Part shown: positions 19,445-21,294 of the stretch, in pieces
Numbering within the stretch: the stretch's first letter is position 1
How the letters are laid out: each line of letters opens with the position of its first letter
Virus record (IMG/VR): IMGVR_UViG_2721755728_000002
Length of the DNA: 55,396 bases
DNA from: a virus
Taxonomy: Duplodnaviria > Heunggongvirae > Uroviricota > Caudoviricetes
Reading direction: 5' to 3' (one strand)
Notes under the pieces: model-generated
The model's input: only the letters and a program-made list of their open reading frames with translations
Told to the model about the DNA's origin: nothing
Databases searched by the model: none
Translations under genes and position numbers: made by a program

Positions 19445-21294
19445 ATGACATTTAAACATTATGATGTTGTCAGGGCGGCGTCGCCGTCAGACCTTGCGGA
19501 AAAGCTGACACACAAACTGAAAGAGGGCTGGCAGCCGTTTGGTAGTCCGGTGGCCATAACCCCTTATACCCTGATGCAGGCGATTACAGCAGAAGGTGAT
19601 GTGGTGGTCAGTGGTGCAACTGAGCCGGATTGGTACTACGTCATCGTACTGGCCGGGCAGTCCAATGCCATGGCTTACGGTGAAGGGCTTCCGCTGCCGG
19701 ATTCATACGATGCTCCGGATCCGCGCATTAAACAGCTGGCGCGCCGCAGTACAGTGACGCCGGGTGGGGCTGCCTGCAGATATAACGATATTATTCCGGC
19801 CGACCACTGCCTGCATGATGTGCAGGATATGAGTACGCTGAATCATCCGAAGGCAGACCTGAGCAAAGGGCAGTACGGCTGTGTCGGCCAGGGCTTACAT
19901 ATTGCCAAAAAACTGCTTCCGTATATCCCGAATAACGCGGGGATCCTGCTGGTACCATGCTGTCGTGGTGGTTCGGCATTCACCCAGGGCGCGGAGGGGA
20001 CATTCAGTGCGGACACGGGGGCCAGCCAGGATTCGGTACGCTGGGGTGTGGGTAAACCGTTATATCAGGACCTGATTGCGCGCACTAAAGCTGCATTACA
20101 GAAGAACCCGAAAAATGTGTTGCTGGCGGTGTGCTGGATGCAGGGAAGTTTGACATGAGCGCCGCCACCCACGCACAGCAACCTGCGCTGTTTACAGCCA
20201 TGCTGACACAGTTTCGTGCTGACCTCTCCGTGTTTAACGCGCAGTGCCATGGTGGCAGTGCTGCAGATGTGCCGTGGATTTGTGGTGACACGACGTATTA
20301 CTGGAAAAATACATACGCTACCCAGTACGACACCGTGTACGGCGGGTATAAAAACAGGGAGAGTGAGGGCGTTTATTTTGTGCCCTTCATGACAGACGGT
20401 AACGGCGTCAATACCGCCACTAACGCGCCGGCAGAAGATCCGGATATTCCGGCATCAGGATATTACGGTGCGGCATCGAGAACGAATGGAAACCAGGTAT
20501 CATCAAACCGCCCGACACATTTCAGTTCATGGGCGCGCAGGAGCATTATTCCGGATCGTCTGGCAACCGCTATTCTGAACGCAGCCGGGCGCACCTCAGC
20601 CTTCATCAGTGGTAAGGCACCGGAAATCAAACCCTCGCCCGGCGGCAACACGCCATCGGGTCCGTCTGCAGATACGTCCGTTCGCACAATCTCCCTGCTG
20701 CCGGCAGCCGGAGAGGCTGCTGCGCAGGGCTGGAGCATTAAGGATGGCGGAATTCAGTTGTCAGATGGTGTATTTAAGATCACCAAGCAGAGCAATAAAA
20801 CCTGGTCCCTGACGCATCCGGTGGATGACGCAATTACCCTGCTGACACAGGGCGGCAGACTGACCTGTAAGTTCCGCCTGTCAGGCGCACTGACCAACAA
20901 TCAGTTCGGGCTGGGGATTTATCTGTATACGGATGCTCCCGTTCCTGATGGTGTGGCGATGACGGGTACCGGTAATCCGTTCCTGATGTCGTACTTCACT
21001 CAGACCACTGACGGCAGAGTGAATCTGATGCATCACAGGAAAGCCGGAAACACGAAGCTGGGGGAGTTCGGCGATTACGGTAACGACTGGCAGACGCTGG
21101 AGCTGGTGTTCACCGCCGGCAGTGCCACGGTTACTCCGAAACTGAATGGAGTGGCTGGCCCGGCATTCCAGGTTATAAAAGACAGTCTGACACTGGGACT
21201 GAATGCGCTGACGCTGACGGATGTTACAAAAAATGCAGCGTATGGCGTTGAGATAGAAAGTCTGGTGCTGGAGATAAATGCACCGGCAGCATAA
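19445..21294 (+). pseudogene. nanS-p-like sialate O-acetylesterase (SGNH hydrolase), split by a frameshift
   Basis: N-terminal ORF 19445-20158 (GQSN motif) and C-terminal ORF 20131-21294 in another frame; overlap at 20131-20158 consistent with a 1-bp change in a G-run. Confidence 0.6.

What the first reader, a model, noticed from the sequence alone, without database searches (positions are those of the whole stretch)
19445..21294. nanS-p-like esterase gene split by a frameshift
The SGNH-hydrolase gene continues in a second frame with a 28-bp overlap (20131-20158). A single-base difference in the G-run within ...atgcagggaagtttgac... would restore one ~616-aa ORF. Either a true pseudogene or a homopolymer sequencing error.
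Basis: partly seen in the sequence, partly recalled or inferred. Interest (0 to 1): 0.45.

Follow-up and report, generated by a model that had tools for sequence, protein, structure and literature searches.

The report
Prophage sialate esterase gene broken by one-base deletion
A well-known prophage gene for a sialic-acid O-acetylesterase (nanS-p) is split into two reading frames because one G is missing from the codon of a conserved active-site glutamate; this is an ordinary, strain-private pseudogene (or an isolated sequence error), not a new kind of feature.

Summary
ORF1 (19445-20158, 237 aa) and ORF2 (20131-21294, 387 aa) are the two halves of one nanS-p gene. Every close homologue is a single 1851-bp, 616-aa ORF. 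The lesion is not in the G-run. Relatives read CAG GGA GAG TTT GAC (Q-G-E-F-D), and the window lacks the middle G of GAG, between A20146 and A20147. That codon is Glu235 of SASA Block III (MQGEFD). The nucleophile Ser73 stays in ORF1, and the catalytic His359 falls in ORF2, which has no good start signal. As encoded, the esterase should be dead. Only DUF1737 plus half a catalytic domain is likely to be made.

The allele is private. It is absent from 5,426 complete E. coli genomes, 50,697 phage records, three contig collections and 15 billion proteins. It is the only indel against near-identical prophages across the alignable window, and none of the window's 952 homopolymer runs (≥4 nt) differs within a gene. 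A homopolymer-type sequencing error is therefore unlikely. An isolated error cannot be excluded without reads.

There is no slippery site and no split homologue, so programmed frameshifting is rejected. Interest is low.

The parts
19435..19441 (+). Shine-Dalgarno sequence GGGAGGA of the nanS-p gene
   Evidence: Read from the sequence. The duplex with the anti-SD is -10.3 kcal/mol, the strongest of the five starts tested.
19445..20158 (+). ORF1: the 5' part of nanS-p (237 aa). Residues 1-234 are native, followed by S-L-T and a stop from the shifted frame
   Evidence: Pfam DUF1737 aa 3-50 (E=3e-16) and SASA aa 66-234, profile positions 4-128 of 226.
19451..19594 (+). DUF1737 domain (aa 3-50), intact
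   Evidence: It is homologous to the N-terminal domain of phi24B gp84, which the preprint 10.64898/2026.04.10.717836 identifies as a capsid-decorating domain.
19661..19663 (+). Codon of Ser73, the Block I (GQSNA) nucleophile, equivalent to NanS Ser19
   Evidence: Motif positions, alignment to 3PT5, NanS motif table in PMC10792757.
20146..20147 (+). Site of the 1-bp deletion: a G is missing between these two A's. It is the middle base of codon 235, GAG (Glu of Block III M-Q-G-E-F-D)
   Evidence: Alignments to L001-L006 and codon table. Block III assignment from PMC10792757 and PMC9487903.
20155..20158 (+). ATGA overlap: the ORF1 stop TGA (20156-20158) overlaps the in-frame ATG (20155-20157) of the downstream frame. 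This is a possible but weak re-initiation point
   Evidence: Read from the sequence. The SD-like pairing upstream is only -5.2 kcal/mol.
20131..21294 (+). ORF2: the 3' part of nanS-p in the -1 frame (rest of the esterase domain plus the C-terminal lectin-like domain). The native coding sequence resumes at 20147
   Evidence: Pfam DUF6645 aa 238-348 of ORF2. PDB 3PT5 and 6YP6 alignments of the intact homologue.
20518..20520 (+). Codon of His359, the Block V catalytic base, equivalent to NanS His301. It is now separated from Ser73
   Evidence: THFS lies at aa 358-361 of the intact protein. Alignment to 3PT5 'SHFS'. Motif table in PMC10792757.
20704..21282 (+). C-terminal jelly-roll / lectin-like domain (aa 421-613 of the intact protein)
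   Evidence: Match to PDB 6YP6 'NanS-p', E=2.6e-29. Described as a carbohydrate-binding module in PMC10462455 and PMC8065619.
21302..21331 (.). GC-rich hairpin just after the stop codon. It was reported as a terminator-like site on the minus strand, with an A-run before it on the plus strand

Best explanation
This is the nanS-p gene (prophage sialate 9-O-acetylesterase; domains DUF1737, SASA esterase, lectin-like C-terminal domain) of a non-Stx lambdoid prophage inserted next to potC. It sits in the late region between the tRNA/TerB/DUF3927 block and the holin. It is inactivated by loss of one G from codon 235 (GAG, the glutamate of SASA Block III, M-Q-G-E-F-D). Shown: translation from the strong native start runs through DUF1737, Block I (Ser73) and Block II, then reads S-L-T-stop. 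The catalytic His359 and the carbohydrate-binding domain lie in the -1 frame, which has only weak start signals. Inferred: no active esterase is made from this copy. At most a 26-kDa N-terminal fragment is made, with an intact DUF1737 domain and half a catalytic domain, plus perhaps traces of a 379-aa C-terminal fragment by re-initiation at the ATGA overlap. Also inferred: the deletion is most likely a recent, strain-private mutation in a gene that is usually present in several redundant copies per genome, so the loss costs little. Q-mediated antitermination should limit polarity on the lysis genes downstream.
For: ORFs and overlap. Domain split. NanS (3PT5, E=1.4e-121) and NanS-p C-terminal domain (6YP6). 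One-base gap against all relatives, which read GGGAGAG. Codon 235 is GAG, and inserting the G gives a 616-aa protein identical to WP_025380333.1 except A198V. V198 (T20037) is shared with strain C3. Motif positions (NanS 17-GQSNA-21, 120-RGGSAF-125, 178-MQGEFD-183, His301): PMC10792757. The Block III (H)QGE motif positions the oxyanion-hole Gln, and substitutions abolish activity: PMC9487903. Allele absent elsewhere: 0 of 851 E. coli records (3793 places) and 0 of 32 phage records match the 91-bp stretch at >=99%; 0 hits in IMG/VR, JGI metagenomes and GTDB genomes; ORF1 and ORF2 are not among 15 billion proteins, while the intact protein sits in a 13,211-member cluster. Assembly otherwise clean: this is the only indel in window 1-31892 against L005 (14 mismatches), there are none in 31684-47996, and 47621-55396 is 100% identical to strain C3. 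Redundancy: matching genomes hold a median of 2 and up to 14 places. Weak restart signals and no slippery heptamer.
Against: No reads are available, so a real mutation cannot be told apart from a single consensus error. The allele was seen nowhere else, which fits either. Apart from the deletion the gene carries no private change, so there is no sign of decay under relaxed selection. The event is either very recent or an artefact. The same window holds another private oddity, a 3.4-kb tandem duplication at 99.2% identity whose junction is absent from all complete genomes. That could point to assembly problems. Loss of activity is inferred from motif knowledge and was not measured.
Confidence: 0.6

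Rival explanations
1. Isolated sequencing or assembly error: the organism carries an intact 616-aa nanS-p, and the missing G is a consensus or polishing mistake. Such mistakes are more likely in a gene with many near-identical paralogues per genome, where reads can be mis-mapped.
For: The allele is unique among all collections searched. The gene has no other private change. nanS-p is multi-copy, with up to 14 places per genome. The window also contains a private 3.4-kb tandem duplication that may be an assembly artefact. An old record, H-19B AF034975.3, shows what error-ridden copies of this gene look like: five private 1-base gaps and no CDS annotated.
Against: The deletion is not in a homopolymer, since the G-run length is unchanged. 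It is the only indel against L005 in 31.9 kb, and no homopolymer run differs in length within a gene, although the window has 952 runs of >=4 nt and 103 of >=6 nt. No known paralogue carries this deletion, so mis-mapped paralogue reads could not simply have copied it in.
Confidence: 0.33
2. Truncation with a retained function: the frameshift removes the esterase, but ORF1 still supplies a DUF1737 capsid-binding (decoration) domain. In phi24B only the processed N-terminal ~57 residues of the homologue stay on the capsid.
For: DUF1737 (aa 3-50) and the strong SD are intact. The preprint reports that phi24B gp84 is cleaved after about residue 57, that DUF1737 alone decorates hexons, and that most DUF1737 proteins are single-domain. 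The window protein is 53% identical to gp84 and higher in the first 40 residues.
Against: The window's major capsid protein is an HK97-type protease-capsid fusion (PF05065 plus S78) with no detectable similarity to the phi24B capsid protein (PF13252). The loop carrying the phi24B anchor Tyr42 differs and is shorter here. No second example of this truncation exists, so there is no sign of selection for it. The prophage also carries an IS5 and other irregularities.
Confidence: 0.05
3. Programmed recoding or a split enzyme: a -1 ribosomal frameshift, or termination and re-initiation at the ATGA overlap, yields a functional esterase from the two frames.
For: The ORF1 stop overlaps an in-frame ATG of the downstream frame (ATGA, 20155-20158). 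A P-site slip on G_GGA would give a full-length Q-G-K-F-D protein.
Against: There is no X_XXY_YYZ heptamer in the overlap, and the restart SD pairings are weak at -5.2 and -5.4 kcal/mol. All homologues examined are single ORFs, from 99.9% down to 53% identity, and NanS itself is continuous across the site. Either route loses or replaces the conserved Block III Glu.
Confidence: 0.02

Closest known systems
Intact nanS-p alleles of E. coli lambdoid prophages and Stx1a phages (e.g. WP_025380333.1 in strain AUSMDU00014361; YP_002274178.1 of phage YYZ-2008; WP_000143031.1 in strain OkiPb01675)
   Same: 99.4-99.9% nucleotide identity over the whole gene, and the same three-domain architecture. The genomic position is also the same: after the Q / tRNA / (stx or TerB-DUF3927) block and before the holin. 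The repaired window protein differs from WP_025380333.1 only by A198V.
   Different: The window lacks one G in codon 235 and therefore encodes two ORFs. No other record has this allele.
E. coli chromosomal NanS (YjhS), 9-O-acetyl-N-acetylneuraminate esterase, PDB 3PT5
   Same: The esterase domain (aa 59-379 of the intact protein) aligns at E=1.4e-121, with identical Block I GQSNA, Block II RGGSAF, Block III MQGEFD and the Block V His.
   Different: NanS has no DUF1737 and no C-terminal lectin-like domain. In the window, Block III is destroyed and the Ser and His lie on different ORFs.
phi24B gp84 / vb_24B_21 (NanS-p of Stx2 podoviruses; C-terminal domain PDB 6YP6)
   Same: 53% identity over the full length, the same three domains and a conserved WMQGEFD.
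   Different: It is an intact 645-aa protein, shown in a preprint to be a proteolytically processed capsid-decoration protein of a T=9 podovirus. The window prophage is a long-tailed lambdoid with an unrelated capsid protein.

Membership tests
NanS-p / SASA (PF03629, CE6-like) sialate O-acetylesterase | Block I GQSN with the nucleophilic Ser | tested here: met
   GQSNA at aa 71-75 of ORF1 (Ser73, window 19661-19663). Motif from PMC10792757.
NanS-p / SASA (PF03629, CE6-like) sialate O-acetylesterase | Block III (H/M)QGE motif that sets up the inverted oxyanion hole | tested here: not met
   The window encodes M-Q-G-S-L-T-stop. The Glu235 codon GAG has lost its middle G. The role of the motif is described in PMC9487903.
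NanS-p / SASA (PF03629, CE6-like) sialate O-acetylesterase | Block V catalytic His on the same polypeptide as the Ser | tested here: not met
   His359 (window 20518-20520) lies in ORF2, in the -1 frame.
NanS-p / SASA (PF03629, CE6-like) sialate O-acetylesterase | Three-domain architecture DUF1737 - SASA - DUF6645/lectin-like in one protein | tested here: not met
   All three domains are present in the DNA but are split over two ORFs. By descent it is a nanS-p gene, at 99.9% identity to intact alleles.
NanS-p / SASA (PF03629, CE6-like) sialate O-acetylesterase | Location in the late region of a lambdoid prophage, upstream of the lysis cassette | tested here: met
   tRNAs at 18021-18273, TerB and DUF3927 upstream, holin and lysozyme downstream. 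The annotation was transferred from the colinear L005 and L006.
NanS-p / SASA (PF03629, CE6-like) sialate O-acetylesterase | Neu5,9Ac2 esterase activity | not testable with these tools
   This needs an enzyme assay of the cloned allele.
Programmed -1 ribosomal frameshift | Slippery heptamer X_XXY_YYZ in the overlap | tested here: not met
   None found in the ORF1 frame between 20090 and 20158.
Programmed -1 ribosomal frameshift | Two-frame arrangement conserved in homologues | tested here: not met
   All homologues examined are single ORFs. 0 of 3793 places carry the allele.
Phase-variable contingency locus (slipped-strand mispairing) | Indel within a long homopolymer or short tandem repeat tract | tested here: not met
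   The longest run at the site is GGG, and it has the same length in intact alleles. The lost G lies between two A's.
Homopolymer-type sequencing error | Indel changes the length of a homopolymer run, with similar indels elsewhere in the assembly | tested here: not met
   The change is not in a run. There is no other indel against L005 over window 1-47996, and the last 7.8 kb are identical to strain C3, despite 952 runs of >=4 nt.
Homopolymer-type sequencing error | Raw reads disagree with the consensus | not testable with these tools
   No reads are available.
DUF1737 capsid-decoration protein (phi24B gp84 N-terminal domain) | Intact DUF1737 domain with its own translation start | tested here: met
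   Pfam PF08410 at aa 3-50, E=3e-16. SD pairing -10.3 kcal/mol.
DUF1737 capsid-decoration protein (phi24B gp84 N-terminal domain) | Partner capsid of the phi24B/GP4 type (PF13252 major capsid protein) | tested here: not met
   The window capsid protein is PF05065 plus an S78 protease, with no BLASTP similarity to phi24B vb_24B_29.
DUF1737 capsid-decoration protein (phi24B gp84 N-terminal domain) | Physical presence on virions | not testable with these tools
   This needs virion proteomics or cryo-EM.

The most novel reading that the evidence does not exclude
The deletion is real, and the 237-aa ORF1 product is still useful to the phage as a stand-alone DUF1737 capsid-binding (decoration) protein. 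This would be a natural 'esterase-less' variant that separates the structural role of NanS-p recently reported for phi24B from its enzymatic role, on a long-tailed lambdoid capsid where that role has never been examined.
Probability: 0.04. Interest if true: 0.35.

Novelty: already known. Interest (0 to 1): 0.12.

Why it matters
It matters mainly for annotation and bookkeeping. The two ORFs should be annotated as one frameshifted nanS-p pseudogene, not as two proteins. This copy should not be counted as a functional esterase when nanS-p gene dosage is related to growth on O-acetylated sialic acids from mucin. The break falls exactly in the Block III glutamate codon, so the allele would serve as a clean natural null. 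Once repaired by one base, it would give an isogenic control for studying NanS-p activity, or the separate role of the DUF1737 domain. Nothing here challenges current knowledge.

Tried and rejected
1. G-run contraction or phase variation: rejected, because intact alleles also have GGG and the lost G is the one in GAG.
2. Programmed -1 frameshift: rejected, with no slippery heptamer and no split homologue.
3. Natural two-ORF homologues: two hits were annotated only as 'DUF6645 domain-containing protein' (H34, H71) and turned out to be full-length single CDSs.
4. Searches for the allele elsewhere found nothing: a 41-nt exact pattern in IMG/VR, JGI metagenomes and GTDB genomes, and an exact-protein look-up of ORF1 and ORF2.
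5. Clustered private mutations as a sign of decay: T20037 (A198V) is shared with strain C3, and the other differences from L005 match the L001 allele. The gene therefore has no private substitution.
6. Transfer of the phi24B capsid-decoration role: the PDB copy lacks the phi24B capsid entries, so DUF1737 gave no hit, and the capsid proteins are unrelated.
7. The primary papers on NanS (PMC3149194) and on the EDL933 nanS-p alleles (PMC5038053) are not held. Motif assignments come from two reviews instead.
8. Tandem Repeats Finder found no array after the portal gene. A self-blast showed that the length difference there is a diverged 162-bp unit.

Full report
OBSERVATION. ORF1 begins behind a strong Shine-Dalgarno sequence (GGGAGGA, 19435-19441; -10.3 kcal/mol). 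Pfam places DUF1737 (aa 3-50) and the first half of the SASA esterase domain (profile positions 4-128 of 226) in ORF1, and DUF6645 in ORF2. The intact homologue has all three domains in one 616-aa protein. The intact homologue matches E. coli NanS/YjhS (PDB 3PT5, E=1.4e-121, aa 59-379) and the C-terminal domain of NanS-p (PDB 6YP6, E=2.6e-29, aa 421-613). The identification as a nanS-p-like esterase gene split by a frameshift is therefore correct.

THE EXACT LESION. Megablast finds the 1850-bp stretch in 284 phage records and in 2,184 of 5,426 complete E. coli genomes. The best hits are 99.4-99.9% identical, and every one of them spans 1851 bases and is annotated as a single CDS ('SASA family carbohydrate esterase', 'yjhS'). 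Against the best hit (strain AUSMDU00014361) the window differs by one substitution and one gap. Alignment to the two most similar prophages shows the intact sequence TGCAGGGAGAGTTTGAC where the window has TGCAGGGA-AGTTTGAC. The codon table of the intact gene gives 232-ATG CAG GGA GAG TTT GAC-237, which is M-Q-G-E-F-D. The missing base is thus the middle G of codon 235 (GAG, Glu), between A20146 and A20147. It is not a member of the GGG run (20143-20145), which has the same length in intact alleles. Inserting that G gives a 616-aa protein identical to WP_025380333.1 except A198V.

CONSEQUENCES FOR THE PROTEIN. A comparative table of SGNH-like active sites lists for NanS (3PT5) Block I 17-GQSNA-21, Block II 120-RGGSAF-125, Block III 178-MQGEFD-183 and the Block V His in ...SHFS-303 (PMC10792757). 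A review of the superfamily states that the SASA Block III (H)QGE motif builds the hydrogen-bond network that positions the Block I Gln in an 'inverted' oxyanion hole, and that substituting these residues abolishes activity (PMC9487903). In the intact NanS-p these motifs lie at 71-75 (Ser73), 174-179, 232-237 and 358-361 (His359). The deletion therefore destroys the conserved Glu codon itself. After Q233-G234, translation reads S-L-T-stop. The nucleophile stays in ORF1, while the catalytic base and the carbohydrate-binding domain are left in the -1 frame. Possible restarts for that frame (GTG 20131, ATG 20155) have weak SD pairing (-5.4 and -5.2 kcal/mol). The ORF1 stop overlaps ATG 20155 (ATGA), so a little re-initiation is conceivable, but the product would lack E-F-D and the whole N-terminal half of the fold. 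The inference, not measured, is that this copy makes no active esterase. At most it makes a 26-kDa fragment with an intact DUF1737 domain.

REAL MUTATION OR ERROR. The allele is private. With a 91-bp query, where a single gap already drops identity to 98.9%, none of 851 E. coli records (3793 places) and none of 32 phage records reaches 99%. A 41-nt exact pattern is absent from IMG/VR, the JGI metagenomes and the GTDB genomes. ORF1 and ORF2 are not among 15 billion proteins, whereas the intact protein sits in a cluster of 13,211 members.

The window is a lambdoid prophage inserted next to potC, with position 1 at the integrase end. It is 99.95% identical to the prophage of strain OkiPb01675 over window 1-31892, with 14 mismatches and exactly one indel, which is this one. 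There are no indels over 31684-47996, and the last 7.8 kb (47621-55396) are 100% identical to strain C3. The window contains 952 homopolymer runs of >=4 nt and 103 of >=6 nt, and none differs in length from the relatives within a gene. The pattern expected from homopolymer-prone sequencing is absent, and the deletion is not a homopolymer event.

Two points argue for caution. First, the gene carries no other private change: T20037 is shared with strain C3, and the remaining differences from OkiPb01675 match the AUSMDU00014361 allele. There is thus no sign of decay, and the event is either very recent or an artefact. Second, the window carries a second private oddity, a 3,426-bp tandem duplication at 99.18% identity (40459-43884 and 43887-47312) whose junction occurs in no complete E. 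coli genome. I put a genuine mutation at about 0.6 and an isolated consensus error at about 0.33. Only reads or PCR from the unique flanks can decide.

REJECTED ALTERNATIVES. Programmed -1 frameshifting is rejected because the overlap has no X_XXY_YYZ heptamer and no homologue is split. This holds for the near-identical alleles, for two copies carrying a different product name, for phi24B gp84 at 53% identity and for NanS. Phase variation is rejected because the G-run is short and unchanged.

WHAT REMAINS, AND THE MOST NOVEL READING. A 2026 preprint on phage phi24B reports that the NanS-p homologue gp84 is a virion protein. It is cleaved after release, and its N-terminal DUF1737 domain (residues 2-57) sits as a hexamer on the central hexons of a T=9 capsid. 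The preprint also states that most DUF1737 proteins are single-domain (10.64898/2026.04.10.717836). ORF1 keeps this domain intact, so a 'decoration-only' role is conceivable. However, the window's major capsid protein is an HK97-type protease-capsid fusion (PF05065 plus Peptidase_S78) with no detectable similarity to the phi24B capsid protein (PF13252). The loop that carries the anchoring Tyr42 in phi24B differs here. No second instance of the truncation exists. I give this reading about 4-5%.

COMPARISON WITH WHAT IS KNOWN, AND VERDICT. NanS-p esterases are well described. They are encoded downstream of stx or in the equivalent late-region position of lambdoid prophages. They are present in several active copies per EHEC genome, and they allow growth on Neu5,9Ac2 and de-O-acetylation of mucin glycans (PMC8065619 and PMC10462455). 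Here the matching genomes carry a median of 2 and up to 14 places. By descent this is a nanS-p gene. As encoded, it fails three defining features of a functional member: the Block III motif, Ser and His on one chain, and the three-domain single polypeptide. It is an ordinary single-base frameshift pseudogene, or an error, in a redundant prophage accessory gene. Novelty: already known. Interest: low (0.12).

Noticed in passing
window 40459-43884 and 43887-47312: A tandem direct duplication of 3,426 bp at 99.18% identity covers the 3' part of the tail assembly gene I and about 900 codons of the host-specificity gene J. It creates an in-frame J'-'I fusion ORF (41194-44376, 1060 aa) ahead of a complete J (44622-48098, 1158 aa). 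The closest prophages have one copy, and the junction is absent from all 5,426 complete E. coli genomes. It is either a real rearrangement or an assembly mis-join.
   Followed up: partly
window 31459-32358 (ORF after the portal gene 30098-31462): A 299-aa ORF with no Pfam match contains a diverged 162-bp (54-aa) repeat (31624-31730 and 31786-31892, 76% alike). The copy number varies in frame between relatives: one unit in strain C3, two in the window, four in OkiPb01675. In both relatives PGAP merges this ORF with the portal gene and labels it 'frameshifted'.
   Followed up: partly
window 46591-47315: Within the second J copy there is a patch of about 28 substitutions in 725 bp relative to both closest prophages, flanked by near-identical sequence. 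It looks like a recombination patch from another J allele.
   Followed up: no
window 18021-19080: The slot between the DNA methyltransferase and nanS-p holds stx1AB in Stx1 phages such as YYZ-2008. Here it carries two tRNA genes (CAT anticodon, called Met by ARAGORN but annotated tRNA-Ile in relatives; and Arg-TCT), a TerB-family gene (18443-18874) and a DUF3927 gene (18871-19080).
   Followed up: partly
window ~10385-11365: An IS5 transposase gene sits in the early/replication region of the prophage. This is inferred by transferring the annotation of the colinear, 99.95% identical L005 (locus 15386-16366). The prophage may be defective.
   Followed up: no
window 47621-55396: The right end of the prophage is 100% identical to E. 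coli strain C3. It carries type III secretion effector cargo (NleG family, EspW, three DUF1076 proteins) and a bfpT-regulated chaperone gene, and the window ends exactly at that gene's stop codon.
   Followed up: no
L004 (phage H-19B, AF034975.3) 3001-4846: The 1990s H-19B record has five private single-base gaps inside this same gene and annotates no CDS there. These are probably old sequencing errors that hid nanS-p in that record.
   Followed up: no
window 21303-21530: The intergenic region between nanS-p and the holin is identical to OkiPb01675. It is rearranged and about 150 bp shorter than in strain C3 and the Stx1 phages. It holds two terminator-like hairpins (21302-21331 and 21504-21530).
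   Followed up: no
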